The translations under genes and the position numbers were made by a program. This document shows, in pieces, positions 3,401-57,797 of a stretch of 64,000 nt of DNA. The stretch lies in contig NC_090399.1 in assembly GCF_036365525.1 (NCBI RefSeq), forward strand, positions 49,508,430 to 49,572,429, written 5' to 3'. The notes below the pieces were generated by a model. It did not search any database and was not told the DNA's origin. It worked only from the letters and a program-made list of their open reading frames with translations. Position 1 is the first letter of the stretch. Every line of letters starts with the position of its first letter. This DNA is from Heterodontus francisci (lineage: Eukaryota).

Positions 3401-4185
3401 AACTATCACTAGTAGCCTGTCTCTCGACACAGAAATCAACAAGCGCACGGGAAAGGCTTCCACTGCTATGTCCAGACTGGCCAAGAGAGTGTGTGAAAAT
3501 GGCGCACTGACACGGAACACAAAAGTCCGAGTGTATCAAGCCTGTGTCCTCAGTACCTTGCTGTATGGCAGAGAGACCTGGACAACGTATGTCAGCCAAG
3601 AGCGACGTCTCAACTCATTCCATCTGCGCTGCCTCCGGAGAATCCTTGCCATCAGGTGGCAGAACCGTATCTCCAACAGAGAAGTCCTCGAGGTGGCCAA
3701 CATCCCCAGCATATACAGCCTACTGAGCCAGCGGTGCTTGAGATGGCTTGGCCATGTGAGCCGCATGGAAGATGGCAGGATCCCCAGGGACACATTGTAC
3801 AGCGAGCTCGTCACTGGTATCAGACCCACCGGCCGTCCATGTCTCTGCTTTAAAGACGTCTGCAAACGCGACATGAAGTCCTGTGACATTGATCACAAGT
3901 CATGGGACTCAGTTGCCAGCAATTGCCAGAGCTGGCGGGCAGCCATGAAGGCGGGGTTAAAGTGTGGTGAGTCCAAGAGACTTAGCAGTTAACAGGAAAA
4001 AAGACAGAAGCGCAAGGAGAGAGCCAACTGTGTAACAGCCCCGAAAGCCAATTTTATTTGTAGCACCTGTGGAAGAGTCTGTCACTCTAGAATTGGCCTT
4101 TATAGCCACTCCAAGCGCTGCTTCACAAACCACTGACCACCTCCAGGCGCTTACCCATTGTCTCTCGAGACAAGGAGGCCAAAGA
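405..4185 (+). mobile_element. RTE-clade LINE, near full length, ORF broken by stops and frameshifts
   Basis: APE motifs (ASWNVRT, ELQETR, LGDFNARVG) in ORFs 887-1363 and 1421-2521 (same frame, TAG at 1361); RT motifs (RGISLLS, QCGFR, GVKQGCVL, LLFADD) in 2530-2790 and 2949-3992; C-terminal CSTCGRVC..HSKRC finger at ~4055-4125. Confidence 0.92.
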
Positions 4186-5345: not shown

Positions 5346-8300
5346 TGAGAACTCGAGAGTGCATATTTTGTGATATTTGGGAAATCCAGGGCACTTCATA
5401 TGTCCTGCATAACCATATGTGCAGGAAGTGTCGTCAGTTGCAAAACCTTGAGTTCTGGGTTTTGGAACCTGAGCAGCTGGCATCCCTCTGGTGCATCCAT
5501 GAAGTTGAGAGCATCACGGATGTGGTCACCCCACAGCATAAAAGTATGCAGAGACAGAGGGAATGGGTGACCAGCAGTCAAGAAGAAACAGGCCGGTCGT
5601 ACCGGAGTCCCCTCAGTGCATCTCTCTTTCCAACCAGTATTCAGTTCGGAAAAGGGATGAAACTGATGCGTCCTCTGGAGAGTGCAGCCAGATTCCAGTC
5701 CGTAGCATGATGACTGGCTGAGCTGCACAGGGTGGGTGGGGGGAGGGTGTACAAAGAGGACTGGAAGAGCAAAATGATAGGACATTCAGTAGTTCAAGTA
5801 TACAAGCGTTTCTACGGTCATAGACGTGAATCCAGGATAATGTGTTGCGTCCCTGGTGCCAGGGTCAAGAATGTCACTGAACGGCTGTGGAGCACCTTGA
5901 TGGAGGAGGGTGAGCAGCCAGCAGTTGCAGTCCACATTGGTATGAGCGACATAAACAGAAAGAGAGGTGTGATCCTGCAGTCAAAGTTTAGGGAGCTAGG
6001 TAGGAAATTAGCATGCAGGACCTCAAATGTAATAATCTTTGGATTACTGCTAATTTTAATTAACGATAATATTGCCATGCTAGAGAGGATGTCTGGGGGT
6101 TGGGAGGAGAGGGGTAAGGAGAACATCTATTTGGCTGGAGCTAAGGACAAAAAGGGGGCATTTATATTGTTTGGTGTAGTCGATTTGGCCACCAACTGTT
6201 GGGAAAGATGCAGATGAACAAATGTGCAAGGAAATTACAGAGAGGTGCAGGAATTATAATGCAGTTATAATGGAGGACTTTAATCATCTGAATATAGACT
6301 GGGATGGTAGTAGTGTAAAGAACAGAGAGCTGCAAGAGTTCCTCGAATGTGTTAAGATTAACTTTCTACAATAGTATGTTTCCACTCCAAACAGATAGGA
6401 GGCACTGCTGGACCTGGTGCTTGGGAATGAGGTGGGCCAAGTGGATCAAGTGTCAGAAGGGGAACATTTAGTGACAGTGATCATTGTATCATAGGTTTAA
6501 ATTGGGTATGGAAAAGGACAAGGAAAAATCAGAGTAAGAAAATTTAACTGGAGAAATGCCAACTCTAATGAGGTAAGAATGGATCTGACTCAGATAAGCT
6601 GGAATCAAAGGTTGGCAGACAAAACGGTAATGGCTGGTAATACGAAAGAATAGATATTTCGGGCACAGTCTAAGTAGAGTAAAGGTAGAGCAATAAAAAG
6701 AATCCAAAGCTCCCTGGATGATCAAAGAGATAGAAATTAAGATGAAGAAAAAGTGTGCTTATGACAGATATCAGTTGGATATAGAAGGTTCAGAGCGAAA
6801 GTGAAAAGGCAAAGAAGAGAAGCAAAGGCATAGTATGTAAAGAGACTGGCAGCTAACATTAAAGGGAATCGAAAAGTCATCTACAGGCATATTAATAATA
6901 TAATGTTGGTAAAAGGACGAGTGGGGCCGATTAGGGACCAACAGGGGGATTTATGCATGCAGACAAGGAACTTGTCTGAGGTTATAAATGAATAATTATC
7001 ATCTGTCTATACCAAGGAAGAAGATGCTGCACAGGTCATGGTGAAAGGGGAGGTAATTCAGACACTTGAATGATTTAAAATTGATAAAGAGAAGGTTTTG
7101 AATAAGCTATCTACTTAAAGCTGATAAGACACCAGGACTGGATGAGATGCATCCGAGGATACTGAAGGAAGTGAGAGTGGAACTTGCGGAGACAATGGTC
7201 ATAATTTTCCAGTCCTCCTTAAACTCAGGGTGGTGCCAGAGGACTAGAAAATTGCAAATGTTAGACTCTTGTTCAAAATAAGGGTGTAAAGATAAGCCCA
7301 ACAACTACAGGCTAATCAGTTTAACTTCGGTGGTGGGGAAACTTCTAGAAATGATAATTTGGGACAAAATTAATAATCACTTGGGCAAATGTGGGAATGT
7401 GGGTTAATTAAGGGAAAATCGTGTTTTTTTAAATATGGTTTCATGGGTTGTGGGTGTCGCTGGCAAGACCAGCATTTGTTGTCCATCCCTAATTGCTCTT
7501 GACATCTGAATGGCTTGCTTGGCTATTTCACAGGGCAGTTAAGAGTCAACCACATTTCTCTAAGTCAGGAGTCACATGAATGCCAGACCAGGTCCAGACA
7601 GCAGATTTCTTGCCCTAAAGAACATTAGTGAACCAGATGCGTTTTTACAGCAATTGGTGATAGTTTCACAGCACCATTGCTGAGACTAGTTTTCAATTCC
7701 AGATTTTTATTAATTAATTGAATTTAAATTCCACCGGGTTCCATGGTGGGAGTTGAACCCATGTCCCTAGAGTATAAACGTGGGCCGCTAGATTACTAGT
7801 TCAGTGACATTACTGCGACACCACCATTGTCTCCATCTGCACGTTTAACTAATGTGCTGGAGTTTTCTTGATGAGGTAATAGAGAGGGTTAATGAGGGTA
7901 ATGCTGATGATGTGGTGCACATGGATTTACAAAAGGAATTTGATAAAGTGCCACTCAACAGAATTGTGAGCAAAACTTTAGCTCATGGACAGGAGCAACA
8001 TGGATACAACATCGGCTGAGTAGCAGGAAACAGATGATTGTGGTTACTGGATGTTTTCTCAGACTGGCAGAAAGTTTGTAATGGAGATCCCCAGGGGTTG
8101 ATGTTCGGACCCTTGCTCTTCCTGAAATTTTAATAATATCGACCTTTGTGTACAGGGTTCAATTTCAAAATTTGTAAATAATACGAAAGTTGGAAGCATT
8201 ATGAACTGAGAGGAGGATAGCGTAGAACTTCAAAAGGACATAAACAGGTTGGTGCAATGGGTGGACAAATGGCAGATGAAATTTAGTGCAGAGAAGTGCA

Positions 8301-8530
8301 AAGTGATTCATTTTGGTAGGAAAAACGCGGAGAGATAATATTAAAAAGGTACAATTATAAAGGGGATGCAGGAGCAGAGGGACCTGGGTGTACACGGGCA
8401 TAAATCATTGAAAGTGGCAGAACAGGTTGAGAGTGGTTAATAAAGCATACTGTATCCTGGGCTTTATTTATAGAGGCGTAGAGTACAAAAGCAAGGCCGT
8501 TATGTTAAACGTGGTCAAAACACTGCTAAA
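5345..8530 (+). mobile_element. CR1 LINE, degraded (ORF1 zinc-finger/esterase and ORF2 remnants)
   Basis: ORF1 CIFCDIW..CRKC and CCVPGARV..VHIG; ORF2 remnants (DLVLGNE, PGLDEMHPRILKEV, MDLQKEFDKVP, RDLGV, KAYCILGFIYRG). Confidence 0.85.
7425..7826 (-). mobile_element. tRNA-derived SINE (SacSINE1-like) inserted in CR1
   Basis: Minus-strand head ggtggtgtcgcagtaatgtcactg...gggttcaactcccacc (A/B boxes); 3' tail shared with the LINE ending at 19177 and 38833. Confidence 0.7.
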
Positions 8531-9845
8531 AAAATGTTTGCTTTTCCTCACTGGCTTCCTGAAAACAGAATGGTGGAATCTTGGTTTAATGCCTCATCAG
8601 GAGGATGGCCCTATTCCTCATGCAGCATTTATTCAGATCCACCAGTGCGTTAGTTTTGTGCACCTTGCAAATAGTTCCCTTGACACACAGCCCATATATA
8701 CAAGGCATTTTTGTACAATTCTACGGACAGGTGTTTTGTTTTCACACGAGGTATCAATATTACATATGAAAAAAAATGGGCAGGTGTGGTGTGTGGGGAA
8801 GTTTCAATTATCCCATAATTTAACGCATTACTTATCTGATTTGAATGAAATGGGTGGGAGTGTTTACTATGGAGCAACTCATCCCAATGCTCCTTTGGTG
8901 TTTTTGATTTAGGGATACCTTTTGACCAGGAAATGCTGAAAACTTCACATTAACGTGACCGAAACAGAAAGATGATTCCTGGGTCAATGTGTGCTTCATC
9001 AATTACAACATCTGTTCATGATAATGTCGATGTTCGTGCATTTATTTTGTTAGAAATGTTCATATATTCTGACCAGCTTTCATCTGAATTTATGACCAGC
9101 AATCCCGCCTTGGCTAACTCTCACGCTGCGGCATTGTGAAAAATGTCCCCTTATAATTCTTTGTCAACCCCGACTATTCTGCATTCGTGATAATAGTTCC
9201 AGCTGCAATTGAACTTTTTTATGCAAACTGATCGTTTGAAAAAGGACACGAATGAAACGGGTTTGGTGACGCAATGTGCGCCCATATTTCAATTTTCCTT
9301 CAAACAATCTAATGTAAAACTACTTCAGCAGCCGTCGTCAACTGAAGGTAGAAATAAACTATCGAAATACATTAATGCTTTAGCGGTTTTTTAGCGCTCT
9401 GTATATTCCATTCAGAGGAAATATTTAAAAAATGAGATATTTGACACACAACAGATAATTTTAATTCTCTTATATGCTAACTTCGTCTAATTGTATTCCC
9501 ATGCTTGAGCCCATCCCCATCAAATCTTCCTTTTTCAAACAACGCAATTTCAGTTGAATTATGCACTGTTATTTATCCAATATGCAATACCATTTACAAA
9601 AATTAACTAAACCCACATTTTTCAACAAGAGGAATCATTTCATTATTCTCCTGATTTTAAAACTGCCAGTTTGATTACAGACATAAGAATAAATAAACCA
9701 TTTCTCATCTCATTGATCGTTCTTTCAGACTTTCAAAACCCGTAAATGACCTTGGCGAAAATTACACTCTTTATCAGGGTTTGCATAATCAGGTTGTATG
9801 TCACTGATGAAGTTTTAAGACCGTTCCACAAAGTCGCTCATAATC

Positions 9846-21700: not shown

Positions 21701-22497
21701 TTTAGCATAACTGCGAGATAGTAAATTCACCCCCTACGCAAGATATGTTCTACCAATTGTTTTGTTGCTTTGCAATGTCATGAACACTGATTCATTCATT
21801 GAGTTTTTGATTCTCTGATTCTGTGATTCCTGGATTGACTGATTTATTGGAGGAATTTTGACTTTCGTCGATCCCGTTAAATGAGCGACTTCGGATCAAC
21901 CACTTGTTCTACATTTCTCCCAATGTTTATTTCCTTTTAGTCCAATAGAAAGGAAAATCAAGAGAGAATAATAATGGCCAGCTGATCCGATGTCTCACAT
22001 TTTACACTATCCCCCGTATTTACATCTTTCCCGATTGTATTTCCATATAAGTAACTGGAAAGGAAAATGGAGAGACATGTAAAGTAAGCTGCTCGTCGCA
22101 ACCTTTCAGTTACACTCTTACACAAAGTCAATATCGTCCCAAGGTCATCACAGCTTCCTTCTTATAGGTTCCTATTAATTGTAAGGAAGGTGCACAATGT
22201 GTCTGATCAACATTGTCTGTGGAAGACAGATTTACCTGGGAAATATCAATCCATTCTGCAGCATTTATCTATTAGAGGTAACATAAGCTGTACAGAGCGT
22301 GAAAATGGCTGCTGAATCATGCTGAGTCGGTTTCGAGCTACTGCCTGAGATCCATTGCACATTATTACCCGAAGCAAAAGGAAACGGAGCAACTGCACAA
22401 AACATTTGGAGTTCAATTCCATATAGCATATTGTCAAACTGATCATTCCAGTGAATTGAGTGCAATTAGTATTTTTCACTTTCATTTTTTCTTGTAG

Positions 22498-23417
22498 GTA
22501 ATCTATTGTCGATTGTGATTCTCTGTCGTGGAAAGTGTGGACTTTCTAAATGTATCACTCGTTACATGGTGGCCATGGCAGCGGCAGATCTACTGGTGAT
22601 AATATTTGATGTGATATTGTATGAGATTAATTACATGTATTTCTCATATTCGTTCTTGGATTACACGCCAGTTTGCAGTCTAAACATGGCTCTGATTGTT
22701 GCAACCATAGATTGTTCTGTCTGGTTAACTGTCGCTTTCACCTTTGATCGATTCATCACTATTTGTTGCCAGAAATTGAGAGTCAAATATTGCACAGGAA
22801 GAACGGCGGCCATAGTTATAGCCACTGTCTTTGGACTGAGCTTTGTAGAAAACATTCCAATTTACTTTGAAACTGAACATCTGGAAATGATTAACAATAC
22901 AGCGTGGTCCTGCCGTTTAAAGTCAACCTCCTCGAGTTCACCTGCATCGATAGCATATTTCTTCTTTGACATTACCTTAACACCATTTGCACCATTTTTG
23001 CTGATTGTGTTGCTCAATGCACTGACGATCAGGCACATTGTACGGGCCAGTAGAGTGAGGAGGGGACTCCGGGAAAACAATAATAGTGAGATACACAATG
23101 ATCCAGAGATGGAGAACCGAATGAAATCCATCATATTACTGCTCGCCATCTCTAGCTCTTTCATCCTTTTATGGATGGTAACATTTGTTTATTATATATG
23201 TACACACTTTGCGGGCATTCTGTTTACGCTCACAGATTACAATGATCCATTCGCCATCATGGAGCACACTGGATACATGCTTCAGCGTTTGAGTTCATGT
23301 ACAAACACATTTATCTATGCAGTGGCTCAGGCTAAATTCAGAGAGGAATTGAAAAATCTCCTTAAATATCCCTGGTCTCAAATTGTTAGGTTAGTGGCTT
23401 CAAAAATTAAAACTTAA
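22498..23417 (+). CDS. GPR139-like GPCR gene 1, exon 2 (TM1 end to TM7); spliced protein 329 aa
   Basis: Acceptor ttttttcttgtag|GT; AAADLLV, PVCSL, TFDRF, ENIP, ECL2 Cys, DPEMENR, LLWM, SSCTNTFIY; uninterrupted to TAA. Confidence 0.93.
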
Positions 23418-41345: not shown

Positions 41346-42006
41346 ACTGTGCTGCTGCTTTCTGCCTGTGCAATAACGACATCATCTCAATCTGTCTATT
41401 CATTGATTTTAATGGTTTCAGAAAGACGGAAAACATGTTATCAATTCCCAATTCCCGCATATTCTTCTAAATAAATTATATTATTAGGCCATAATACTTA
41501 ACTTTTGTTGGACATTTATCAGCGTCAAACACAAAGGACAGGATTGAATATTAAGAGATGATTAATACTGTTACATTATTATAAGTTGCAATGGAAAATA
41601 ACGAAGGTTAGTTGCAGAAAATACACAAAAGCATTTGTAGATCCGTTTTATGTTATCATTGAAGTAATGCGTAAACAAGGCACTGAATCTGTAAGGGCCC
41701 TGCTGTAAAATCTGCGTGATCCCTGATTTGAGTCTAAAGTGTCTGAACAACTAAATGGCAAATGACTATTAAGCTCCAAATGTTACCCAATTTCACAAGT
41801 TGTTGTTTTCCTTTGAGGTAACAGCCAATAAATGATGTGGCGTGGATTGCTAAATAGTTATGCCTCCTCAGGATTTCCACATTTACGCGGACAGAGTGAA
41901 TGATTTGAGTGAAAGAAAAATCAGCACTAATTATTACAGTTTATTTTGTTCGAATTATTCGTCAAGTCTATGCTCCTGATTTATTTCATTACTCCCCCAC
42001 TTGCAG

Positions 42007-42893
42007 CCAACCTGGTGACCATTGTGATTCTCTCCCGAGGAAAGTGTGGCCTCTCCAAATGCATCACTATTTACCTGGTGGCCATGGCAGCGGCGGATCT
42101 CCTGGTCCTGATAGTTGATGTGCTCCTGTATGAGATGAATGAAATTTATTTCCCAGAATCATTCCTGGACTACACTCCCGTCTGTAGTCTGAATTTCTTC
42201 CTAATTTTTGCTTCTATTGAATGTTCTGTCTGGTTAACTGTCGCTTTCACTTTTGATCGATTTATCGCCATTTGTTGCCAAAAAATAAGAACACATTATT
42301 GCACCGAAAGAACTGCGGCCGTGGTTGTGGCAACGATGTGGGGATTGAGTATTTTGGAAAACATTCCAATCTCCTTTACATTTGAACCTCGCATAATAAT
42401 TGACGATGTATTGTGGTTCTGCAATGTAAAATCAAGCCTCTATACTGTACCGATATGGGTTGCATTCTTGTGGGTTGATATAGCTTTAATGCCTTTTATT
42501 CCATTTCTCTTGATTCTGATATTCAATGGTCTGACCATCAGACATATTCTATTGACAAACAGGATCAGGAGGGGTCTCCGGAGCAGCAGCAGCGACCCAG
42601 AAATGGAAAACCGAAGGAAGTCCATCGTTTTACTGCTGGCCATATCTGGCAGTTTTATTCTGTTATGGATGGTGACTTTCACTCATTATATATGTGTACA
42701 AATTTTGGATATTCAATATTTGCATACAGACTACAGTCATCCTTTCACCATCATGGAACAAACTGGATATATGCTGCAGCATTTGAGCTCCTGCACAAAC
42801 ACCATCATTTATGCAGTGTCTCAGACTAAATTCAGACTGCAGTTAAAGAATCTGTTTAAATATCCGTTGGTGTTAATTAAGTTCGGGAAATAA
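42007..42893 (+). CDS. GPR139-like GPCR gene 2, exon 2; spliced protein 318 aa
   Basis: Acceptor cccccacttgcag|CC gives ANLVTIVIL; AAADLLV, PVCSL, TFDRF, DPEMENRRKS, SSCTNTIIY; intact to TAA. Confidence 0.93.
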
Positions 42894-44394: not shown

Positions 44395-47300
44395 GAAACA
44401 TAGAAAAATACGAGCGGGAGCAGGCCATTCGGCCTTTCGAGCCTGCTCTGCCATTCAGTACGATCATGACTGATCATCCAAACTCAGTAACCTGTTCCCG
44501 CTTTTCCCCCGTATCCCTTGATCCCATTACCCTAAGAACGATATCAAACTCTTTCTTGAATATATTTAATGATTTGGCCTCAACTAATTTCTGTGGTAGA
44601 GAATTCCACAGGTTCACCACTCTCTGAGTGAAGAAATCTCTCCTCATCTCAGTCCTAAATGGCTTACCCCTTATCCTTAGACTATCACCCCTGGTCCTGG
44701 ACTTCCCTGCCAACGGGAACATCCTTCCTGCATTTAGTCTGTCCAGTCCTGTTAGAATTTTGTAAGTTTCTATGAGATCCCCTCTCATTCTTCTAAACTC
44801 TAGTGAATACAAGCCTAATCGACCAAATCTCTCTTCATACATCAATCCTGCCATCCCAGGAATCAGTCTGGTGAACCTTCGCTGCACTCCCTCCATAGCA
44901 AGAACATCCTTCCTCAGATAAGGAGACCAAAACTGCACACAATACTCCTGATGTGGTCTCACTAAGGCCTGGTATATTTGCAGCAAGACATCTTTGCTCC
45001 TGTACTTGAATCCTCTCGCTATGAAGGCCAACATACCATTTGCCTTCTTAACTGCCTGCTGCACCTGCATGCTTACTTTCAGTGACTGGTGCACAAGGAC
45101 ACCCAGGTCTTGCTGCACCTCCCCCTTTCCCAATCAATTGCCTTTCAGATAATAATCTGCCTTTCTGTTTTTGCCACCAAAGTGGATAACCTCACATTTA
45201 TCCACATTATACTGCATCTGCCATGCATTTGCCCACTCATGCAACCTGTCCAAATCACACTGCAGCTTCTCTGCATCCTCCTCACAGCTCACACTCCCAC
45301 CCAGCTTTGTGTCGTCTGCAAACTTGGATATATTACATTTAATTCCCTCATCTATATCATTAATATATATTGTGAAAAGCTGGCGTCCTAGCACTGATCC
45401 CATATGGTACCCCACTAGTCACTGCCTGCCACTCAGAAAAAGACCCGTTTATTCCTACTCTTTGTTTCCTGTCTGCCAACCAGTTCTCTGTCCATGACAG
45501 TACCTTACCCCCAATCCCATGTGCTTTAAATTTGCACACTAATCTCTTATGTTGGACCTTATCGAAAGCCTTCTGAAAGTCCAAATACACCACATCCACT
45601 GGTTCTCCCTTATCTATTCTACTAGTTACATCCTCAAAAAATTCCAGTAGATTTGTCAGGCATGATTTCCTTTCATAAACCCATGTTGACTTTGTCCGAT
45701 CCTGTCATTGTTTTCCAAGTGCTCTGCTATTACATCTTTTATAATGGACTCTAGCATTTTCCCCACGACTGATGTCAGGCTAACTGGTCCATAATTCCCT
45801 GTTTTCTCTCTACCTCCTTTTTTAAATAGTGGGGTTACATTGGAGTCTGTAGAATTTTGAAAAATGACCTGAAGCACATCTACTATTTCTAGGGCCACTT
45901 CCCTAAATACTCTGGGATGTAGATTATCAGGCCCTGGGGAATTATCGGCCTTCAATCCCATCAATTTCCCTAACACCATTTTCCTAATAATACTGATTTC
46001 ATACAGTTCCTCCTTCTCACTAGACCCTATGTTCCCCAACATTTCTGGGAGGTAATTTGTGTCCTCCTTTGTGAAGACAGAACCAAAGTATGTATTGAAT
46101 TGGTCTGCCATTTCTTTGTTCCGAATTATAAATTCCCCCATTTCTTACTGTAAGGGGCCCACATTGTCTTCAATAATCTTTTTCTCTTCACATATCTATA
46201 GAAGCTTTTACAGTCAGTTTTTATGTTCTCTGCAAGATTACTCAAATACTCAATTTGCCCCTTCTTAATCAATCCCTTTGTCCTCCTTTGCTGAATTCTA
46301 AACTGCTCCCAATCCTCAGGTTTGCTGCTTGTTATGACCATTTCATAATTCTCCTCCTTGGATCTAATACTATCCCTAATTTCTTTTGTAAGCCATGGTT
46401 CAGCTTCCTGTTTCATTTTTGCACCAGACAGGAATGAACAATTGTTGTAATTCATCCATGTGCTCTTTAAATGCTAGTCATTGCCTATCCACTATCAACC
46501 CTTTAAGTAACGTTCCCCAATCTATCATAGCCAACGCACACCTCATACCTTCATAGTTTTCTTTATTTAGATTCAGGATCCTCGTCTTGGAATCAACTCT
46601 CTCACTTTCCATCTTAATGAAGAATTCGATCATGTTATGGTCGTTCTTCCCCAAGGGTCCCCGCAGAACAAGATTGTTAACTAATCCTTTCTCATTACAC
46701 AATAACCAGGCTAGGATAGCCTGTTCTCTGGTTGGTTCCTCAATATATTGGTCCAAAAAATCAACACGTACACACTCCATGAATTCCTCCCCTACAATAT
46801 TATTGCTAATTTGGTTTGCCCAATCTATATGTAGATTAAAGTCAACCATAATTACAGTTGCACCCTTATTGCATGCATATCCTGTTTAATGCCATCCTCT
46901 ACATCACCACTGCTGTTTGGGGGTCTATGTACAACCCCCACCAATGTCTTCTGCCCCTTGGTTTTTCTTAGCTCCACCCATACAGATTTCACATCAGGAT
47001 TCTCTGAGCTAATATCCTTCCTCACTATTGCATTGATTTCCTCTTATACGAACAATGGTACTCCACCTCCTTTCCCTTTTTCCCTGTCCTTCCTTAATTT
47101 TATTACCCTTGGATGTTCAGTTCCCATCCTTGGTCACCCTGCAGCCATGTCTCCGTAATCATAACTATATTGTCTCCATCCATTACATCTATTTGAGCGG
47201 TCAGTTCGCCTGCCTTATTACGAATTCTCCGCACATTGAGGCACAATGCCTTTAGGCTTGTCTTTTTAACATTGTTAGTCATCTTAGCATTAGTTCGCAC

Positions 47301-50300
47301 TATGGCCCTATTTGTTTCTCACCCTTGATTTCTATGCCTTCCACTTTTGTCTTTTTGTTTCCTGTCTTTCGTTTCTATCCTTGTTTCCTCCTCCTCAGTC
47401 ACCCCACTCAGGTTCCCATCCCCCTGCCATTCTAGTTTAAATCCTCTCCAACAGCATTAGCAAACGCCCCTGCGAGGACATCGGTTCCAGTCCTGCCTGG
47501 GTGTAACCCATCCCACTTGTTCAGGTCTCACCTTCCCCAGAACAGGTCCCAATGTCCCAGGAATCTTAATCCCTCCCTCGTGCACCATTTCTCCAGCCAC
47601 ACATTCATCTGGTGAATTCTCCTGTTCCTATACTCACTAACAGGTGGCACAGGAAGTAATCCTGAGATTACTACCTTTGAAGTCCTGCTTTTTAATTTAG
47701 CTCCTAATGCCTTAAATTCATCTTGCAGGACCTCATCCCTTTTTCTGCCTATGTCATTGCTACCAACATGGACCACGACCAACGGTTGTTCACATTCCCC
47801 CTTCAGAATGTCCTGCAGCTGCTCCAAGACATCCTTGACTCTAGCACCAAGGAGGCAACATACCATCCCGGAGTCTCAGTTGCAGCCACAGAAACGCCTG
47901 TCTGTTCCCCTTACAATTGAATCTCCTATCACGATGGCTCTCCCAGTCTTTTTCAAAGATACAAAGAACAAAGATAATTACAGCACAGGAACAGGCCCTT
48001 CGGCCCTCCAAGCCTGCGCCAATCCAGATCCTCTCTCTAAACATGTCGCCTATTTTCTAAGGTTCTGTATCTCTTTTCTTCCTGCCCATTCATGTATCTG
48101 TCTAGATACATCTTAAAAAACGCCATCGTGCCCGCATCTACCACCTCCGCTGGCAACGCGTTCCAGGCACCACCCTCTGCGTAAAGAACTTTCCACGCAT
48201 ATCCCCCCTAAACTTTTCCCCTTTCACTTTGAACTCGTGTCCTCTAGTAATTGAATCCCCCACTCTGGGAAAAAGCCTCTTGCTATCCACCCTGTCTATA
48301 CCTCTCATGATTTTGTACACCTCAATCAGGTCCCCCCTCAACCTCCATCTTTCTAATGAAAATAATCCTAATCTACTCAACCTCTCTTCATAGCTAGCGC
48401 CCTCCATACCAGGCAACATCCTGGTGAACCTCCTCTGCACCCTCTCCAAAGCATCCACATCCTTTTGGTAATGTGGCGACCAGAACTGTACGCAGTATTC
48501 CAAATGTGGCCGAACCAAAGTCCTATACAACTGTAACATGACCTGCCAACTCTTGTACTCAATACCCCGTCCGATGAAGGAAAGCATGCCGTATGCCTTC
48601 TTGACCACTCTATTTACCTGCGTTGCCACCTTCAGGGAACAGTGGACCTGAACACCCAAATCTCTCTGGACATCAATTTTCCCCAGGACTTTTACATTTA
48701 CTGTATAGTTCACTCTTGAATTGGATCTTCCAAAATGCATCACCTCGCATTTGCCCTGATTGAACTCCATCTGCCATTTCTCTGCCCAACTCTCCAATCT
48801 ATCTATATTCTGCTGTATTCTCTGACAGTCCCCTTCACTATCTGCTACTCCACCAATCTTAGTGTCGTCTGCAAACTTGCTAATCAGTCCACCTATACTT
48901 TCCTCCAAATCATTAATGTATATCACAAACAACAGTGGTCCCAGCACGGATCCCTGTGGAACACCACTGGTCACACGTCTCCATTTTGAGAAACTCCCTT
49001 CTACTGCTACTCTCTGTCTCCTGTTGCCCAGCCAGTTCTTTATCCATCTAGCTAGTACACCTTGGACCCCATGCGCCTTCACTTTCTCCATCAGCCTGCC
49101 ATGGGGAACCTTATCAAACGCCTTACTGAAGTCCATGTATATGACATCGACAGCCCTTCCCTCATCAATCAACTTTGTCACTTCCTCAAAGAATTCTATT
49201 AAGTTGGTAAGACATGACCTTCCCTGCACAAAACCATGTTGCCTATCACTGATAAGCCCATTTTCTTCCAAATGGGAATAGATCCTATCCCTCAGTATCT
49301 TCTCCAGCAGCTTCCCTACCACTGACGTCAGGCTCACCGGTCTATAATTACCTGGATTATCCCTGCTACCCTTCTTAAACAAGGGGACAACATTAGCAAT
49401 TCTCCAGTCCTCTGGGACCTCACCCGTGTTTAAGGATGCTGCAAAGATATCTGTTAAGGCCCCAGCTATTTCCTCTCTCGCTTCCCTCAGTAACCTGGGA
49501 TAGATCCCATCCGGACCTGGGGACTTGTCCACCTTAATGCCCTTTAGAATACCCAACACTTCCTCCCTCCTTATGCCGACTTGACCTAGTGTAATCAAAC
49601 ATCTGTTCCTAACCTCAACATCCGTCATGTCCCTCCCCTCGGTGAAAACCGATGCAAAGTACTCGTTTAGAATCTCACCCATTTTCTCTGAGTCCAAGCA
49701 TAACATTCCTCCTTTGTCCTTTAGTGGGCCAATCCTTTCTCTAGTTACCCTCTTTCTCCTTATATTTGAATAAAAGGCTTTGGGATTTTCTTTACCCTGT
49801 TTGCTAAAGATATTTCATGACCCCTTTTTGCCCTCTTAATTCCTCGTTTCAGATTGGTCCTACATTCCCGATATTCTTTCAAAGCTTCGTCTTTCATCAG
49901 CCGCCTAGACCTTATGTATGCTTCCTTTTTCCTCTTAGCTAGTCTCACAATTTCACCTGTCATCCATGGTTCCCTAATCTTGCCATTTCTACCCCTCATT
50001 TTCACAGGAACATGTCTCTCCTGCACGCTAATCAACCTCTCTTTAAAAGCCTCCCACATATCACATGTGGATTTACCTTCAAACAGCTGCTCCCAATCTA
50101 CATTCCCCAGCTCCTGCCGAATTTTGCTATAGTAGGCCTTCCCCCAATTTAGCACTCTTCCTTTAGGACCACTCTCGTCTTTGTCCATGAGTATTTTAAA
50201 GCTTACGGAATTGTGATCACTATTCCCAAAGTAGTCCCCTACTGAAACTTCAACCACCTGGCCGGGCTCATTCCCCAACACCAGGTCCAGTATGGCCCCT

Positions 50301-52620
50301 TCCCGAGTTGGACTATTTACATACTGCTCTAGAAAACCCTCCTGGATGCTCCTTACAAATTCTGCTCCATCTAGACCTCTAACACTAAGTGAATCCCAGT
50401 CAATGTTGGGAAAATTAAAATCTCCTATCACCACCACCCTGTTGCTCCTACATCTTTCCATAATCTGTTTACATATTTGTACCTCTATCTGACGCTCACT
50501 GTTGGGAGGCCTGTAGTACAGGCCCAACATTGTTACCGCACCCTTCCTATTTCTGAGGTCTGTCCATATTGCCTCACTGCTCGAGTCCTCCATAGTGCCC
50601 TCCTTCAGCACAGCTGCGATATCCTCTTTGACCATTAATGCAACTCCTCCACCCCTTTTACCTCCCTCTCTATCCCACCTGAAGCATCGATATCCTGGGA
50701 TATTTAGTTGCCAATCATGCCCTTCCCTCAACCAAGTCTCAGTAATAGCAATAACATCATACTCCCAGGTACTAATCCAAGCCCTAAGTTCATCTGCCTT
50801 ACCTACTACACTTCTTGCATTAAAACAAATGCACCTCAGACCACCAGTCCCTTTATATTCATCATCTGCTCCCTGCCTGCTCTTCCCCTTAGTCACACTG
50901 ACTTCATTATCTAGTTCCTTACAGGCTTTTGTTACTACCTCCTTACTGTCAACTGACCTCCTCAATTGGTTCCCATCCCCCTGCCACATTAGTTTAAACC
51001 CTCCCCAACAGCGTTAGCAAAAGCACCCCCAAGGACATTGGTTCCAGTCCGGCCCAGGTGTAGACCGTCCAATTTGTAATAGTCCCACCTTCCCCAGAAC
51101 CGGTCCCAATGTCCCAAAAATCTGAACCCCTCCTTCCTGCACCATCTCTCAAGCCACGCATTCATCCTGACTATTCTTTCATTTTTACTCTGACTATCAC
51201 GTGGCACTGGTAGCAATCCTGAGATTACTACCTCTGAGGTCCTACTTTTTAACTTGGCTCCTAACTCCCTAAACTCTGCTTGTAGGACCTCATCCCATTT
51301 TTTACCTATATCATTGGTGCCTATGTGCACAATGACAACTGGCTGTTCACCCTCCCCCTTTAGAATGTTCTGCAGCCGATCTGAGACATCCCTGACCCGT
51401 GCACCTGGGAGGCAACATACCATTCAGGAGCCTCGTTTTCGACCACAGAACCGCCTATCTACTCCCCTCACAATCGAATCCCCTACGACTATAGCCCTTC
51501 CACTCTTTTTCCCGCCCTTCTGAACAGCAGAGCCAGCCACGGTGCCATGGACCTGGCTACTGCTGCCTTCCCCTGGTGAGCCATCTCCCTCAACAGTATC
51601 CAAAACGGTATACTTGTTTTGGAGGGAGATGACCGCAGGGGACTCCTGCGCTGCCTTCCTGCTCTTTCTCTGCCTTCTGGTTACCCATTCCCTTTCGCCC
51701 TCAGCAATCCTAATCTGCGGTGTGACCAATTCACTAAACCTTCACTTTTCCTCCCCTGCTGTGCAGCAGAGCCATCCGTGGTGCCACAAACTTGGTTGCT
51801 GTTGCTTTCCCCTGGGAGGCCATTCTCCACCTGACAGTATCCAAAGCAGTATATCTGTTTGAAAGGGGGATGGCCACAGGGGACTCCTGCACTACCTGTC
51901 TGCGCCTACTACTCCGCCTGGTGGTCACCCATCCCTTTTCTGCCTGTGCAGTCATTACCTGCGGTGTGACCACCTCGCTAAATGTGCTATCCATGATGTC
52001 CTCAGCATCACGGATGCTCCACAGTGAATCCACCCGCAACTCCAGCTCCGTAATGTGGGTAGCCAGTAGCTGCAGATGAATACACTTCCTGCACACATGG
52101 TCGTCAGGGACACTGGAAGCATCCCTGATTTCCCACATAGCGCAGGAGGAGCATATCACGGGGCTGAGCTCTCCTGTCATGATTTACCCTTAGGTTAATT
52201 AGTTACTCCCTTTAAAAAATACAAATTACACTGGGGGCCTTGTTCTACTCCAAACACTACCCACTACAATCTAAGTCCTTAATAAATTGCACTAATTTAA
52301 AAAAAAACACTTTAGTCGTACTAACCTTAACACTTATAAGGTAGGTTTAAAAAATAACTTTCTCCTGATTTTTTAAGCTATTTCCAGGCACTAACGGCTG
52401 TTACTCACCAACCAATCACCTTGCAGCTTTCCTGTGATGTTGCTGTTGACTTTATTTTCAAACTCCGGTGCACCTGGACTGCTCTCACAAAGGTCCACTC
52501 CCAGAAGATAAATGACTGGGCCTCGACCCTCAGGCTCAATTTATCCTCTTCTTTCACTTGGCATTCTCCCAACAGGTCCGCTCCTCTCTGCTTCGCTCCC
52601 GGAAGGTCAGTCATTACCTC
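44395..52620 (-). mobile_element. CR1 element A (near full length, degraded), split by nested element B; A = 44395-47955 + 51740-52620
   Basis: Ordered RT, APE and ORF1 fragments; ORF1 esterase breaks at 47955 and resumes at ~51740 (ORF 51734-52180 with CSSC..CRKC finger); 5' UTR motif at ~52403. Confidence 0.85.
47957..51738 (-). mobile_element. Young CR1 element B, 5'-truncated, few lesions
   Basis: ORF1 51729-50989 (GDSI..SGNH esterase, one stop at ~51424); ORF2 50989-49760 (APE) and 49706-48138 (RT, KFADD), frameshifts at ~49790 and ~48170. Confidence 0.95.
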
Positions 52621-53229
52621 CAGGATTCTTTTCCTAGACTCGGAATCTAAACACTGACTGCTTCTTGATTGCCATCCAGTGACTCCGACAGGAAGGTGCG
52701 GCTCTGTGAGACATGGTTGAGGTTAACTCCTCCGAGTCTCAGGGAACATTAAGGGCTGAATTTTGCGGCCCCCGTAGGTGGGATCGGAGGTGGGTGCGGC
52801 ACTACGTATCGCAACAAGGGAAGGGGGCGAAGGGCCTATCGGCCAGCGATCTTCCCGGGGGTGGACTAGGCTGATGACGGCCTTCCCACACAGAGACCAA
52901 TTGAGGCCCTTAATTAGACTATTAAGGACCAATTAAGGGCCTCTTCTCACCGCCACTGAGGTCTTACCGGGAACGGTGGGGTGGGGGGGGGAGGGGAAAT
53001 GGGGGGGCGGCCTTGACCACGCGGGGAGGGTGCCTTGTAAAACGAGGAAATAAGTGAAATGACATGACAGACAACATGATGGGAATGGACTATGACTGGA
53101 AAGAATAAGAATTGAAAATGTATTCAGATTAATGCGCATGTAGAATTCTATAGAGTTTTTTCTGCCCGTTTCTTTTCCGCTGGCAACTTGGTCATTCCCA
53201 GCCACCGGCAACCCTTGGCCATCTGGTCT

Positions 53230-56005
53230 TTTCCCTTCTTTTCCCTTCCTCTATTGGTTTCTTGGTCATCCTTGCTGGATTCTAAATTGCTCCCAATCCT
53301 TGGACTTACCACTTTTCTGGCAACCTTATTAGCCACTTCCTGTGATCTAATGCAATCTTTAACTTCTTTTGTTGGCAACGGTTGATTAATCTTTCCTGTT
53401 GTTTTTTTTGTGTCTTACAGGAATGTATATTTATTGGCAACCATGTAATACTTCTTTAAATACTCGCCATTGCCTGTTTACCGCCAAATCTTTTAGTGTA
53501 TTTTCCCAATCCATCATAACCAACTGGCCCTTCATACCTTTTGTTCAGATTTAGGACCCTAGTTTCAGAATGACTATATCACTTTCAAACTTAATGTTGA
53601 AATTTATATTATAGTCACTATATCCCAAAGCCTCATTTACAGCAAAGTTATTAATTATTCCTTTCTTATTACATAATACTAAATCTAAAATAGCTGAAAT
53701 CCAAGTTGGTTCTTCTACATACTGCTCCAGAATACCATCTCGCACACACTCCAGGAGTTCATCTTCACTCCTTTACTGCTGATTAGATTTACCCAGTCAA
53801 TATGTAAATTGAAGTCACGCATTATTCTCCATGTTTCATGCACCTCTAATTTCCTGATTTATACCATGTCCAACATTACCACTACTGTTTGTTGACCTAT
53901 AAACAACTCCCACCAATGTTTGCTGCCCCTTGCTGTTGCTTAGCTCCACCCAAATTGATTCTGCATCTTGATCTTCGATCTAGGATTCTCTGTCGCTAAT
54001 GTAGTGATCCCATCGTTTAGTAAGAGCGCTACCCCACATCGTTTTACTTTTTGCCTATTCTTCCTAAATGACGAATATCCTTGAATATTCAGTTTCCAGT
54101 CTTTCCAGCAGCAATGTCTCTGTAATGGCAATTAAATCATAGCCATTTACCTCCATTTGCGTCTTCAATTCATTTGTGAATGCTGCATGCATTCAGATAT
54201 AGTGCCCTTAACTTTGTCTTTTCAATATTATTCCGCATTCTGATTCAATTTGATGCTTGCCTCCACTTTGTTTTCTAATTTCGCTTACTGCTTTTCGACT
54301 TCATGATACCAGTCTTGCTTCCCTCCAATTTTCCCTTCTTGCTATACTCAGATTGTCAATTCCCTTATTGCTACATTGCTCTCTTGCCTTCTCCTCTCTT
54401 TAAATTATCACATCTTCCCTCACTTGATCCCTTGTCCCCACTATTTATTTTAAAGCCCTCTCCACTGGCCTAGTTATATGACTCACCAGAACACTTGTCC
54501 CAGCAGGTTTCAGGTGAAGACCATCTCACCAGTACAGCTCCCAGTTTCCACAGCTTGTGCTGGTGCCCCACAAATCGAAACCCATTTCTCCCACACTGAA
54601 CTTTGATCCATGCATTTAACTTTAATCTTATTTACTCTATGTCAATTTGCCCGTGACTCAGGTTCCAGAGATTATTACATCTGAGATTCTGCTATTTAAT
54701 TTATCCCCTAGTTGCTCATACTATCTATGCAAAACCTCTTTCCTAGCCCTGTCTATGTCATTGGTACCAACGTGGACCACGACAACAGGATCCTCCCCCT
54801 CACACTGCGGTTCCTCTCCAGCCCTGAGCAGATGTCCTAAACCCCGGCACTAGGCACACAACACAGGCTTCTGGACTCTTGCTCTTGGCTGCAGAGAATG
54901 GTGTCTATCTCCCTGACTATACCGTCTCCTACGACTACTACATTCCTATTTACTCCCGCATCTTGAATGGCTTCCTGTACCATGGTGCCTTGGTCAATTT
55001 GCTCATCCATCCTGCAGCCCTCTCTCTCATCCATACAAGTTGAAAGAACCTCAAACCTGTTCGACAATTGTAAGGGATGAGGCCCCTCCACTTCTGCCTT
55101 CTCGATCCAATTACCTGCCTTACACGCAGTCACATCCTCCTGTTCTTGACCACTGACCAAATCAGATGACCCTGTCCGAAGGGGTGTGACTGCTTTCTGG
55201 AAAACGTGTCCCGGTAGCTTTCTCCTCCCTGATACATTGCAGTGTCTGCAGCTTGGCCTCCAGCTTATCGACTTTGAGCCGAAGTTCCTCGAGCCACAGA
55301 TACTTACAGCAAACGTGGTTGCCATGGAGCACACTAGTGTCCACAAGCTCCCACATACTGCAGCCACAATACATCACCAGTCTTGTCATCCTTATTGTGA
55401 TTTAATGAACTAATTAATTACTTTCTTAATTGATTGTTTAATTCATGCCTCTCCTCACCACCACTTACTATACTAATTTAAATCTGTGTAATACAATAAA
55501 CCTGACCATTTAAAAAGAGCAAAAAACAATAGACTCACCAGTTCATTGTTTCTCTTCTGCTTGTGTCCCTTAATTAATAAAGTAGCTACTTCAGGCTTTT
55601 TTTTTAATTACGCTTTTCTAATTTGCAGCTACTTACAGACACTCCCTAAAAGCAGTTATTCACCAACCAATCACCTTACAGCTTTCCTTTGATGTCATTT
55701 TCTTTTTCAAGCTCAGTCAGTGGGCACCAAATCCTGAAGGTAAATTGCTCTGCCACCACCTCGGGCCTCGCTTTACCTTCTCCTCAATGGTTTCCCCACA
55801 GGTCCGCCACTCTGTCACCACCTCTCCCGTCTGTCTCCAGGTGAGTGAAGGCCCCAAGCCGGGGCCTCGTTTTACGTTCTCCTCAGTAGTTTCCCCACAG
55901 GTCCACACTCTGCCACCACCTCTCTCGACTGTCTCCAGATGTGTGAAGGCCCCGAGCCTGGGCCTCACTTTACCATCTCCTCAGTGGTTTCCCCATAGGT
56001 CTGCC
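53230..56005 (-). mobile_element. CR1 element C (5' UTR, ORF1, APE part of ORF2), degraded
   Basis: ORFs 55162-55389 and 54837-55367 (CCGC, LSNRFEVL, VVGDGIVR), 53940-54131, 53551-53745 (ILDLVLCN). Confidence 0.8.
55760..56005. repeat. ~99-bp tandem repeat, ~2.5 copies
   Basis: gggcctc..tttac..tctcctca.t.gtttcccca.aggtc recurs at ~55763, ~55862 and ~55960. Confidence 0.85.
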
Positions 56006-56009
56006 ACTA

Positions 56010-57210
56010 GCAATTTGTGCACTAAGACACCCAGATGCCTCTACATCTCAGAGCTCTGCAATCTCTCACCATTTAGATAATATGCTTCTTTTTTATTCTT
56101 CCTGCCAAAATGGAGAATTTCACATTTTCCCACATTATACTCCAATTGCCAGATCTTTGCCCACTCACTTAACCTATCTATGTCCCTATGTCCTTATGCC
56201 CTCTTCACAAGCTACTTTTTAATTTATCTATGTGTCATCAGCAAATTTAGCAACCATACCTTCAGTCCTTTCATTCAAGTCATTTATATAAATTGTAAAA
56301 TGTTGAGGCCCCAGCACTGATCCCTGTGGCACACTACTGGTTACATCTTGCCAACCAGAAAATGAGCCATTTATACCTACTTTCTGTTTCCTGTTAGCTA
56401 GGCAATCTTCTATCCATGCCAATAGGTTACCCCCTACACCCATGAGCTTTTCTTTTTCTGAATAACCTTTGATGTGGCACCTTATCAAATGCTTTCTGGA
56501 AATCTAAGTACAGTACATCCACCAGTTCCCCTTTATCCACAGCACATGTAACTTCCTCAAAGAACTCCAATAAATTGGTTAAACGTGATTTCCCTTTCAC
56601 AAAACCATGTTGATTCTGCCTCATCACCTTGACTTTTTCTAAATGCCCTGCTATAACCTCTTTAATAATATTATCTAATATTTTCCCGATGACAGACGTT
56701 AAGCTAACTGGCCTGTAATTTCCTGCTTTCTGCCTCCCTCCCTTTTTGAATAAAGGAATTACATTTGCTATTTTCCATCTAATGGAACCTTCCCCAAATC
56801 TAGGGAATTTTGGAAAATTTAAACCAAAGCATCAACTTATCGCCAGCCACTTCTTTTAAGACCCTAGGATGAAGTCCATCAGGACCCGGGGACTTGTCAG
56901 CCCACAGCTCCAAAAATTTGCTCATTACCACTTTCCTGGTGATTGTAATTTTCTTCAGTTTCTCCCTCCCTTCCATTTCCTGATGGACAGCTAATTCTGG
57001 GATGTTACTTGTATCCTCTACAGTGAAGACCGATGCAAAGTACTTGTTCAATTCATCTGCCATCTCCTTATTATGTATTATTAATTTTCCCAGACTCACT
57101 TTCTATAGGACCAACACTTACTTTGATAACTCTTTTCTTTTTTAAAATATCTATAGAAACTCTTACTATCCATTTTTATATTTCCAACCAGCTTTCTCTC
57201 GTACTCGTAA
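56010..57210 (-). mobile_element. CR1 internal RT fragment D
   Basis: ORFs 56800-57099, 56427-56627, 56228-56488 (QHGFVKGKS, YLDFQKAFDKVPH, VPQGSVLGP, KFADDT). Confidence 0.88.
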
Positions 57211-57221
57211 TTGCTCTAACT

Positions 57222-57797
57222 GAGGTCCAGACCACATCTGGAGTATTGTGTGCAGTTTTGGTCTCCTTATCTGAGGAAGGATGTTCTTGCCATGGAGGGA
57301 GTGCAAAGAAGATTTACTAGGCTGATGCCTGGGATGGCAGGATTGACGTATGAGGAGAGATTGGGTCGGCTCGGCCTATATTCACTAGAGTTTCGAAGAA
57401 AGAGAGGGGATCTCATAGAAACCTGTAAAATTTTAACAGGACTAGACAGGCGAGATGTTGGGAAGATGTTCCCGATGGCTGGGGAGTCCAGAACCAGGGG
57501 TCGCAGTCTCAGGATATGGGGTATGCCATTTAGAATCAGGATCAGGAGAAATTTCTTTATTCAGAGGGTGGTGAACCTGTGGAATTCTCTACCACAGAAA
57601 ACAGTGGAGGCCAAGTTATTCAATATATGTAAGAAGGAGATAGATATATTTCTTAATGTCAAAGGGATCAAGGGATACCGGGAGAAAGCGGGAACAGGGT
57701 ACTGAATTAGACAATCAGCCATGATCTTTTTGAATGGCGGAGCAAGCCCGAAGGGTCGAATGGCCTACTCCTGCTCCTATTTTCTATGTTTCTATGT
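57222..57797 (+). mobile_element. CR1 3' fragment E
   Basis: ORF 57250-57705; tail ctcctattttctatgtttctatg. Confidence 0.9.

What the first reader, a model, noticed from the sequence alone, without database searches (positions are those of the whole stretch)
47432..54454. Conserved U_UUA_AAC/A slippery heptamer just before the ORF1 stop in three diverged CR1 LINEs: candidate programmed -1 frameshift to an ORF1-ORF2 fusion
Seen (minus strand): element B GGT TTA AAC TAA (heptamer 50992-50998), element A GAT TTA AAC TAG (47435-47441), element C GCT TTA AAA TAA (54448-54454). Each is an X_XXY_YYZ heptamer in the ORF1 frame. In B the -1 frame (TTT AAA CTA ATG TGG CAG) is the long ORF2 frame. In A the aligned frame reads FKLEWQG with no ATG, so B's TAATG stop-start overlap is not conserved but the slippery site is. 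A G-rich tract (ggcagggggatggg in A and B) follows. Established: UUUAAAC is the coronavirus -1 slip site; LINE ORF2 is usually thought to be made by reinitiation. Inference: these CR1s may express ORF2 by a retrovirus-like frameshift. I cannot check whether this is already reported.
Basis: partly seen in the sequence, partly recalled or inferred. Interest (0 to 1): 0.75.

Follow-up and report, generated by a model that had tools for sequence, protein, structure and literature searches.

The report
Conserved frameshift site in CR1 LINEs
Three decayed copies of a CR1 jumping gene in this cartilaginous-fish DNA end their first gene with a retrovirus-type slippery sequence plus a stop, a layout shared by CR1 relatives from sharks to crocodiles, so the copying enzyme in the second gene is likely made when ribosomes slip back one base, though no slip has been measured.

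Summary
Observation confirmed. All three heptamers sit in the ORF1 frame directly before the stop. The -1 frame is the ORF2 frame and is closed five codons upstream, with no AUG between.

The signal reaches far beyond this window:
- 41 of 53 ORF1 homologues end Leu-Asn-stop.
- 17 published CR1-group consensuses, from sharks to crocodilians, show TTTAAAC-TAR at the junction; only 3 have a following AUG.
- In about 14,000 reads from many families, no variant of 5% or more was listed in the heptamer, while the next codon varies freely (AUG at most 37%).
- Distant relatives swap Leu-Asn for Gly-Asn or Lys-Asn, the other X_XXA_AAC heptamers (protein level only).

Best reading: programmed -1 frameshift giving an ORF1-ORF2 fusion (about 0.78).

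Against: no downstream hairpin, element B's family keeps a TAATG stop-start, and no translation was measured.

Ten literature searches found no CR1 report, but the original CR1 papers were not seen. A -1 shift is already stated for Dictyostelium TRE LINEs, and earlier scan notes raise the same idea.

The parts
50992..50998 (-). Element B slippery heptamer U_UUA_AAC (ORF1 Gly-Leu-Asn; -1 frame Phe-Lys-Leu)
   Evidence: no variant of 5% or more listed in run X21
50987..50991 (-). Element B ORF1 stop TAA (50989-50991) overlapping an in-frame ORF2 ATG (50987-50989)
   Evidence: these three ATG bases vary in 48%, 21% and 63% of X21 reads
50968..50986 (-). G-rich conserved tract 5-24 nt after the heptamer (WQGDGN in the -1 frame); candidate stimulator, two-tier G4 predicted
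50968..51012 (-). Junction island shared by many CR1 families (read depth about 14,000 against about 3,500 in the flanks)
   Evidence: tables 2 and 7
51014..51016 (-). Stop codon that closes the -1 frame five codons before the heptamer
50989..52180 (-). Element B ORF1 (N-terminal Cys pairs, coiled coil, SGNH esterase); broken near 51735 and by a TGA at 51424-51426
   Evidence: domain layout from the model of homologue P0001
48138..50998 (-). Element B ORF2 (linker, APE endonuclease, reverse transcriptase); one frame break near 49760-49814
47435..47441 (-). Element A heptamer U_UUA_AAC, then TAG (47432-47434); no in-frame ATG at the junction
47432..47950 (-). Element A ORF1 esterase part (5' end abuts the tail of B)
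44474..47441 (-). Element A ORF2, decayed, in several frames
54448..54454 (-). Element C heptamer U_UUA_AAA, then TAA (54445-54447); no G-tract like that of A and B
54445..55377 (-). Element C ORF1, decayed
53392..54454 (-). Element C ORF2 5' part, decayed; no further match to B's ORF2 beyond about 53390

Best explanation
In these esterase-ORF1 CR1 LINEs a slippery heptamer lies directly before the ORF1 stop with ORF2 in the -1 frame, so a minority of ribosomes likely slip back one base there and would make an ORF1-ORF2 fusion (esterase, linker, endonuclease, reverse transcriptase), as retroviruses make Gag-Pol. Shown: heptamer, frame, a closed -1 frame upstream, an open linker downstream, no conserved AUG, and conservation across vertebrates. 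Inferred: tandem slippage of the Leu and Asn tRNAs from UUA-AAC to UUU-AAA, giving ...Leu-Asn (or Leu-Lys) then Leu-X-Trp-Gln-Gly. Most ribosomes would stop and release ORF1p, which sets a high ORF1p:ORF2p ratio. Least certain: the stimulator, which may be the adjacent stop codon plus the conserved G-rich tract (weak G4 or a protein-binding site) rather than a pseudoknot. The three window copies are themselves dead.
For: (1) Anatomy: in A, B and C the -1 frame has a stop five codons before the heptamer and no ATG between, so ORF2 cannot start upstream. (2) Protein level: 41 of 53 homologues end in LN; most of the other 12 are truncated, fused or end elsewhere. The residue before LN can end in T in 88 of 89 cases, against 54% and 66% at the two preceding positions and 80% over positions -9 to -4 (rows are related). 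(3) Nucleotide level: in run X21, other CR1 families match only the 45-nt junction island (depth 13,975 against 3,637 and 3,442). No variant of 5% or more is listed at 50990-51005, which includes the synonymous positions of the Gly, Leu and Asn codons, while the codon after CTA varies in 48%, 21% and 63% of reads. TTA is only 14% of B's Leu codons. (4) Published consensuses: 17 of 20 TTTAAACTAR hits are ORF1/ORF2 junctions, in alligator, crocodile, bullfrog, coelacanth, bowfin, halosaur, chimaera, ray, sawfish, catshark and dogfish; ATG follows in frame in 3 of 17. Upstream-anchor searches returned 7 rows showing an ORF1 end, all with the heptamer. (5) Linker: 8 of 8 distinct downstream loose-end consensuses are open and ATG-free for about 10 codons in the -1 frame, and all hold stop triplets in another frame (read by eye). 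Four mis-annotated fusion proteins read FKL there, two of them open to the endonuclease over 69 and 108 residues. (6) Covariation: outside the vertebrate clade, 17 of 42 ORF1 proteins end in a slip-compatible tripeptide (shuffle mean 2.3, max 8). Of 21 ending in Asn, the previous residue is G 9, L 6, K 2, E 2, S 2. KN/GN are sisters at 96 support. [quoted passage not shown] (7) LN lies outside the fold: the last helix ends at 311 of 315 and pLDDT there is 63 against 94-98 in the domain. The solved ZfL2-1 esterase 4C1B ends two residues after profile position 306 of 310.
Against: No stable hairpin 3' of any heptamer (z from -1.6 to +2.2), although a 3' structure 5-9 nt away is the usual second element (PMC3542737); no pseudoknot program was run. 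The G4 is two-tier, predicted only, and absent in C. TAATG is a family trait in B's lineage (catshark CR1-1a consensus; contig record 9 of run X14) and in two sister dogfish families. In-frame Met codons occur further down several linkers (A, P0026, P0033). Reads were laid at 80% likeness, so families with a changed junction are under-sampled, and 24 variant rows were hidden. The consensus search was by the heptamer itself and saw only the first 400 nt of each entry. The GN and KN proteins are unnamed, with no DNA seen, so their heptamers and a downstream ORF2 are inferred. No natural full-length in-frame ORF1-ORF2 protein was found (a weak search). No translation data.
Confidence: 0.78

Rival explanations
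1. Termination-reinitiation: ribosomes stop at ORF1 and restart on the overlapping codon (AUG in some families, a near-cognate codon in others) or on a downstream AUG, as described for SART1 and proposed for L1. The conserved island would then be a reinitiation signal. It may also run alongside frameshifting in TAATG families such as B.
For: TAATG in B's family and in two dogfish families. The middle base of that codon is T in 79% of X21 reads, so near-cognate starts (GTG, ATT, ATA) are common in sharks. TURBS-type reinitiation tolerates non-AUG starts (PMC5972666 passages). UGGGA occurs 55-146 nt upstream in all three copies. Downstream Mets exist in several linkers.
Against: In amniote, frog, coelacanth, bowfin and halosaur consensuses the codon is GGT, GCT, AGC, GAT, GGG or GAA, not start-like. 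The UGGGA hits coincide with Trp codons and lie at varying distances. Reinitiation does not explain a fixed heptamer, its swap to other slippery heptamers, or an open linker upstream of scattered Mets.
Confidence: 0.13
2. Protein constraint: Leu-Asn-COOH is a needed C-terminal motif of ORF1p, and the heptamer is a by-product.
For: L and N are invariant in 29 of 29 aligned ORF1s and mostly sit 26 residues from the catalytic DGxH motif.
Against: Synonymous positions are fixed. The preceding residue is limited to T-ending codons. Leu is replaced by Gly or Lys. The distance from DGxH varies from 24 to 39 residues in distant lineages. The dipeptide is outside the folded domain. The conserved island extends 24 nt beyond the stop.
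Confidence: 0.04
3. ORF2 comes from a separate RNA (splicing from 5' UTR donors, or an internal start), or from polymerase slippage at the T/A runs; the island is a splice or transcription signal.
For: Splice-donor-like motifs in B's 5' region (52409, 52421, 52619). CTAG could be an acceptor in TAG families.
Against: About half of the reads have TAA, so no AG. The upstream sequence is G-rich with no polypyrimidine tract. The runs are only three bases long. No RNA run was laid, so this is not tested directly.
Confidence: 0.05

Closest known systems
Viral and retroelement programmed -1 frameshift sites, X_XXY_YYZ (PMC3542737 passages; PMC5009743 passages)
   Same: Canonical heptamer in the upstream frame, polymerase in the -1 frame, short overlap; U_UUA_AAC is listed among the shiftiest sites. 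A stop right after the heptamer is also found in some retroviruses (RSV, BLV; recalled, not retrieved).
   Different: Host is a non-LTR retrotransposon; no hairpin found 5-9 nt downstream; no protease to process the fusion; efficiency unmeasured.
Dictyostelium TRE5-A / TRE3-A (APE-type non-LTR elements)
   Same: A review legend states that both need a -1 frameshift to translate ORF2 (PMC5911963, passage).
   Different: Different host and ORF1. I did not see the primary evidence or their shift sites, so any shared signal is untested.
Penelope-like elements with an ORF1 frameshift and pseudoknot (PMC8557442, Fig. 1 legend); Drosophila HeT-A gag frameshift (PMC5009743)
   Same: Frameshifting in retroelements without LTRs.
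   Different: Not APE LINEs (PLEs), or a shift within gag only (HeT-A); a pseudoknot is drawn for the PLEs and no structure is found here.
SART1 UAAUG translational coupling and L1 reinitiation (PMC5972666, PMC10275272, PMC3894237; passages)
   Same: B's family has the same UAAUG overlap.
   Different: AUG is absent in 14 of 17 junctions; no downstream structure of the SART1 kind; no inter-ORF spacer as in L1.
Vertebrate canonical CR1 with esterase ORF1 (PMC13343379 section 15; PMC3905857 passages)
   Same: The elements are ordinary members: SGNH esterase ORF1, APE and RT in ORF2; B's junction is nearly identical to the catshark CR1-1a consensus.
   Different: Neither paper uses the word frameshift (0 hits). 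The esterase clade that resembles ZfL2-1 lacks the terminal signal (0 of 10).

Membership tests
CR1-clade LINE (vertebrate, esterase ORF1) | ORF2 with APE endonuclease then reverse transcriptase | tested here: met
   Pfam PF03372/PF14529 and PF00078 in B
CR1-clade LINE (vertebrate, esterase ORF1) | ORF1 with SGNH esterase | tested here: met
   PF13472 E 4e-13; PDB 4C1B E 3e-40
CR1-clade LINE (vertebrate, esterase ORF1) | Placement in CR1 by RT phylogeny | not tested
   No RT tree built; assignment rests on junction identity to consensuses labelled LINE/CR1 and an esterase tree
Programmed -1 ribosomal frameshift site | X_XXY_YYZ heptamer in the zero frame | tested here: met
   definition from PMC3542737
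Programmed -1 ribosomal frameshift site | Long ORF in the -1 frame, entered before the zero-frame stop, without its own upstream start | tested here: met
   B's family does have an AUG just downstream
Programmed -1 ribosomal frameshift site | Heptamer conserved beyond protein need | tested here: met
Programmed -1 ribosomal frameshift site | 3' stimulatory structure 5-9 nt downstream | tested here: inconclusive
   No significant hairpin; two-tier G4 predicted 6 nt downstream in A and B only; no pseudoknot program run; pairing to the 3' tail no better than shuffles
Programmed -1 ribosomal frameshift site | Measured frameshifting or trans-frame protein | not testable with these tools
   needs a reporter, ribosome profiling or mass spectrometry
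Stop-start (UAAUG) coupled reinitiation, SART1/TURBS type | AUG overlapping or next to the ORF1 stop, conserved | tested here: not met
   3 of 17 junctions; at most 37% of reads; met for B's family only
Stop-start (UAAUG) coupled reinitiation, SART1/TURBS type | TURBS motif 1 in a structured element, or a SART1-type downstream structure | tested here: inconclusive
   UGGGA present at varying distances, on Trp codons; no downstream structure

The most novel reading that the evidence does not exclude
Programmed -1 frameshifting is the ancestral way in which the whole esterase-ORF1 CR1 lineage, the dominant LINE of most vertebrates and of related unnamed lineages, makes its reverse transcriptase. 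It yields an unprocessed Gag-Pol-like ORF1-ORF2 fusion that would co-assemble into the RNP through the ORF1 coiled coil. It is driven by a heptamer plus stop codon plus a G-rich tract with no pseudoknot, possibly a first natural G-quadruplex or protein-bound stimulator.
Probability: 0.5. Interest if true: 0.85.

Novelty: new variant of a known kind. Interest (0 to 1): 0.68.

Why it matters
How LINE ORF2 is translated is a standing open question (PMC3894237). For CR1, the most abundant LINE of birds, reptiles and many other vertebrates, this gives a precise site and a 60-nt reporter test. If true:
- CR1 ORF2p is mis-delimited in annotations; the real product would be a roughly 1,300-residue fusion.
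- Retrotransposition constructs would need the junction.
- Host anti-frameshift factors could act on LINEs.
- A frameshift kept for over 400 million years without an evident pseudoknot would be a new stimulator type; the 2016 review lists no natural G4 stimulator.

The mechanism class itself is well known and has been stated for Dictyostelium LINEs.

Tried and rejected
- No whole genome is held for the window, so no genome-wide copy survey was possible.
- Scans of metagenome, prokaryote-genome and viral contigs gave 8, 6 and 0 loci, all weak matches. The 8 metagenome loci were translated and none showed a CR1 junction, one giving no readable stop; the 6 prokaryote loci were not examined further.
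- Plasmid and phage collections: no match.
- N-termini of 120 full-length ORF2 proteins: none reach the junction, and called starts are scattered or lie inside the first endonuclease strand; these are gene-caller choices and many are other clades, so not used as evidence.
- Search for natural in-frame ORF1-ORF2 proteins over 1,040 aa: one chimeric host annotation among 667 candidates; uninformative.
- Downstream hairpin: not significant in A, B or C.
- Pairing of the G-tract with B's 3'-tail hairpin strand (-22.9 kcal/mol): 4 of 30 shuffled queries did as well or better and 6 windows lay within 1 kcal; rejected.
- A fold spanning A's junction had z -2.5 but was not reproduced in B or C; rejected.
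- 44 of 52 cluster rows added were not rechecked beyond the FKL scan. The GN/KN proteins looked up carried no informative name, so their hosts stay unknown.
- The careful tree did not finish; the quick tree was used. 46 of 200 proteins lacked a detectable C-terminal motif and were left out; 82 of 152 domains were kept at under 62% identity for the tree.
- Supplements of PMC4316615 were listed but not read. bioRxiv supplements are closed.
Full report
OBSERVATION. The three junctions are as described. Mapping the window with B's own reading frames shows three nested or adjacent CR1-type LINEs on the minus strand. B is near full length (ORF1 from ATG 52180, ORF2 to 48138). A is an older copy whose esterase and ORF2 lie 3' of B's tail. 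C is the most decayed and loses similarity near 53390. All have disabling stops or frame breaks, so none is active. Domains in B are an SGNH esterase in ORF1 and APE plus RT in ORF2. The best ORF1 homologues are from sharks and rays, so the host is inferred to be a cartilaginous fish. In each copy the -1 frame has a stop five codons upstream of the heptamer and no ATG between. ORF2's frame can therefore be entered only within those few codons, or by a start downstream.

PROTEIN-LEVEL CONSERVATION. 41 of 53 homologues of B's ORF1 end in Leu-Asn; named sources include sharks, rays, a mormyrid fish and frogs, and a chimaera protein ends Leu-Asn-Tyr. A profile search added lizard, turtle, swallow and poison-frog proteins that also end in LN. 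Of 200 proteins, 154 had the DGxH motif 18-70 residues from the stop; 89 end in LN. The residue before LN takes 12 identities, but 88 of 89 can be encoded with a final T, as U_UUA_AAC requires; at the two preceding positions only 54% and 66% can. These rows are related, so the binomial p of 5e-8 overstates independence. Four mis-annotated read-through proteins (two from a stingray, one from a turtle, one unnamed) show FKL in the ORF2 frame at this point. LN in one frame and FKL in the other fix the heptamer. An AlphaFold model of homologue P0001 ends its last helix at residue 311 of 315, with pLDDT 63 over the last five residues against 94-98 in the domain. The solved ZfL2-1 esterase chain ends two residues after profile position 306 of 310. 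Leu-Asn is thus not part of the fold.

COVARIATION. In an 82-row quick tree built without the terminal residues, the vertebrate clade (support 96) has 26 of 30 rows ending in a slip-compatible tripeptide. A clade resembling ZfL2-1 (one member named from a cavefish) has 0 of 10. The remaining 42 unnamed rows have 17 (shuffle mean 2.3, maximum 8 in 2,000). Among those 42, the 21 that end in Asn have Gly 9, Leu 6, Lys 2, Glu 2 or Ser 2 before it. [quoted passage not shown] With the published XXX deviations allowed, 30 of 42 have a compatible tripeptide in the last six residues (shuffle mean 13.1, maximum 22). Chemically unlike residues exchanging within the slippery set is hard to explain by protein need. 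Limits: no DNA, host name or downstream ORF2 was seen for these proteins, and the clades were read from the tree by eye.

NUCLEOTIDE-LEVEL CONSERVATION. Four public runs were laid on B's junction at 80% likeness. In raw-read run X21 (21,665 reads laid) depth is about 14,000 over the island against about 3,500 on either side and 5,600 over the catalytic-motif region. The loose ends translate to ORF1 and linker sequence of other CR1 families, so these families share only a 45-nt island. Inside it no variant of 5% or more is listed at 50990-51005 or 50977-50986. The codon after CTA varies at all three bases (48%, 21%, 63%), so at most 37% of reads keep the AUG; B's own family is about a quarter of the depth. 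One non-synonymous A-to-G change (16%) lengthens the G-run. The only listed indel is 3 nt. All 8 distinct downstream loose-end consensuses shown are open and ATG-free for about ten codons in the -1 frame and hold stop triplets in other frames (by eye; 520 further rows were not shown). Caveats: families with a changed island align less well, and 24 variant rows were hidden.

PUBLISHED CONSENSUSES. In Supplementary Table 2 of PMC13343379 (about 1,000 entries, only the first 400 nt of each visible), TTTAAACTAG or TTTAAACTAA occurs 20 times. By eye, 17 are ORF1/ORF2 junctions from 11 species across cartilaginous fish, ray-finned fish, coelacanth, frog and crocodilians; 3 are not junctions. The fourth -1 codon is ATG in 3 of 17: catshark CR1-1a, which is B-like, and two sister dogfish families that resemble C but carry AAC. 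That makes C's AAA probably a copy change. GGGGGATGGG follows in two alligator families as in sharks; some families, such as the halosaur entry, lack a G-run. Anchor searches that did not use the heptamer returned 7 rows showing an ORF1 end, all with it. These consensuses contain visible gaps, so I did not use them to judge open frames.

STIMULATOR. No hairpin beats shuffles in 45-150 nt downstream of any copy; the region is 72-75% purine. No pseudoknot program was run. ViennaRNA places a two-tier G-quadruplex 6 nt after the heptamer in A and B (about -4.8 kcal/mol), not in C. G4s stimulate frameshifting in synthetic constructs, with no natural case known in 2016 (PMC5009743). Long-range pairing to the 3' tail failed its control. 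The stimulator is the weakest step; the adjacent stop and the G-tract are candidates only.

MECHANISM AND RIVALS. A programmed -1 frameshift accounts for the fixed heptamer, its position at the last possible codons, the closed upstream frame, the open AUG-free linker and the swaps among slippery heptamers (0.78). Reinitiation accounts for TAATG in two lineages. Two of roughly 15 lineages is only mildly above the few per cent expected by chance (my estimate, no call), and it may act as a second route in those families, but it does not account for the rest (0.13). Protein constraint (0.04) and a separate or edited RNA (0.05) fit poorly; the latter was not tested on RNA runs.

LITERATURE. Ten full-text searches returned no paper that, in the listings or passages I saw, reports frameshifting in CR1. 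What I saw:
- PMC5009743: passages; only the first 300,000 of 449,034 characters are held; 'CR1' 0 hits.
- PMC3894237: parts 1-2 of 3.
- PMC13343379: passages, section 15 and supplement rows; 'frameshift' 0 hits.
- Passages only: PMC3905857, PMC8557442, PMC5911963, PMC5006619, PMC5972666, PMC10275272, PMC3542737, PMC2734521, PMC2817409, PMC4255032, PMC11835228.
- Not seen: Haas 1997, Kajikawa 1997 and Kapitonov and Jurka 2003 (the last not held), and Repbase entries. Any of these could already note the overlap or the site.

A -1 frameshift is stated for Dictyostelium TRE5-A and TRE3-A and drawn for some Penelope-like elements. Earlier notes of this scan propose the same reading in other genomes; they are repeats of the idea, not evidence.

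VERDICT. A real, deeply conserved junction signal in ordinary CR1 elements. It most likely marks a programmed -1 frameshift: a new variant of a known mechanism, directly testable, with function unmeasured. Interest 0.68.

Noticed in passing
window 52409-52421 and 52619, minus strand: Splice-donor-like motifs (GGTGAGT, AGGTGA, AGGTAA) in or near B's 5' UTR; similar GGTAAGT motifs recur in several catshark CR1 5' ends. Could be U1-binding sites or donors for spliced RNAs.
   Followed up: partly
window 47950-47957 and 52455-52462: TTTGAAAA at both ends of B, a candidate 8-bp target-site duplication. If right, B sits inside A, and A lacks the N-terminal half of ORF1 (no match upstream).
   Followed up: partly
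window 5360-8560, plus strand: A fourth CR1 copy whose junction is deleted: the ORF1 esterase runs into the middle of the endonuclease (about 6031-6126).
   Followed up: partly
window 848-3992, plus strand: A decayed LINE ORF2 of a different kind (RTE-like by appearance, recalled; not tested).
   Followed up: no
window 22470-23417 and 41931-42893, plus strand: Two intact single-exon ORFs of about 315-320 aa that look like paralogous seven-transmembrane receptors (recalled resemblance; not scanned).
   Followed up: no
proteins P0054 and P0005: CR1 proteins filed under bacteria (Carnobacterium, 97% identical to B's ORF2; Pseudomonas), most likely fish DNA contaminating those assemblies.
   Followed up: no
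proteins P0256, P0273, P0295, P0313, P0317: A clade whose ORF1 has Lys-Asn at the usual position but continues 11-13 residues to the stop, suggesting A_AAA_AAC with a longer overlap.
   Followed up: partly
window 57229-57705 (+) and 56017-57090 (-): CR1 ORF2 pieces in opposite orientations that abut, possibly an inverted or twin-primed insertion or two separate copies.
   Followed up: no
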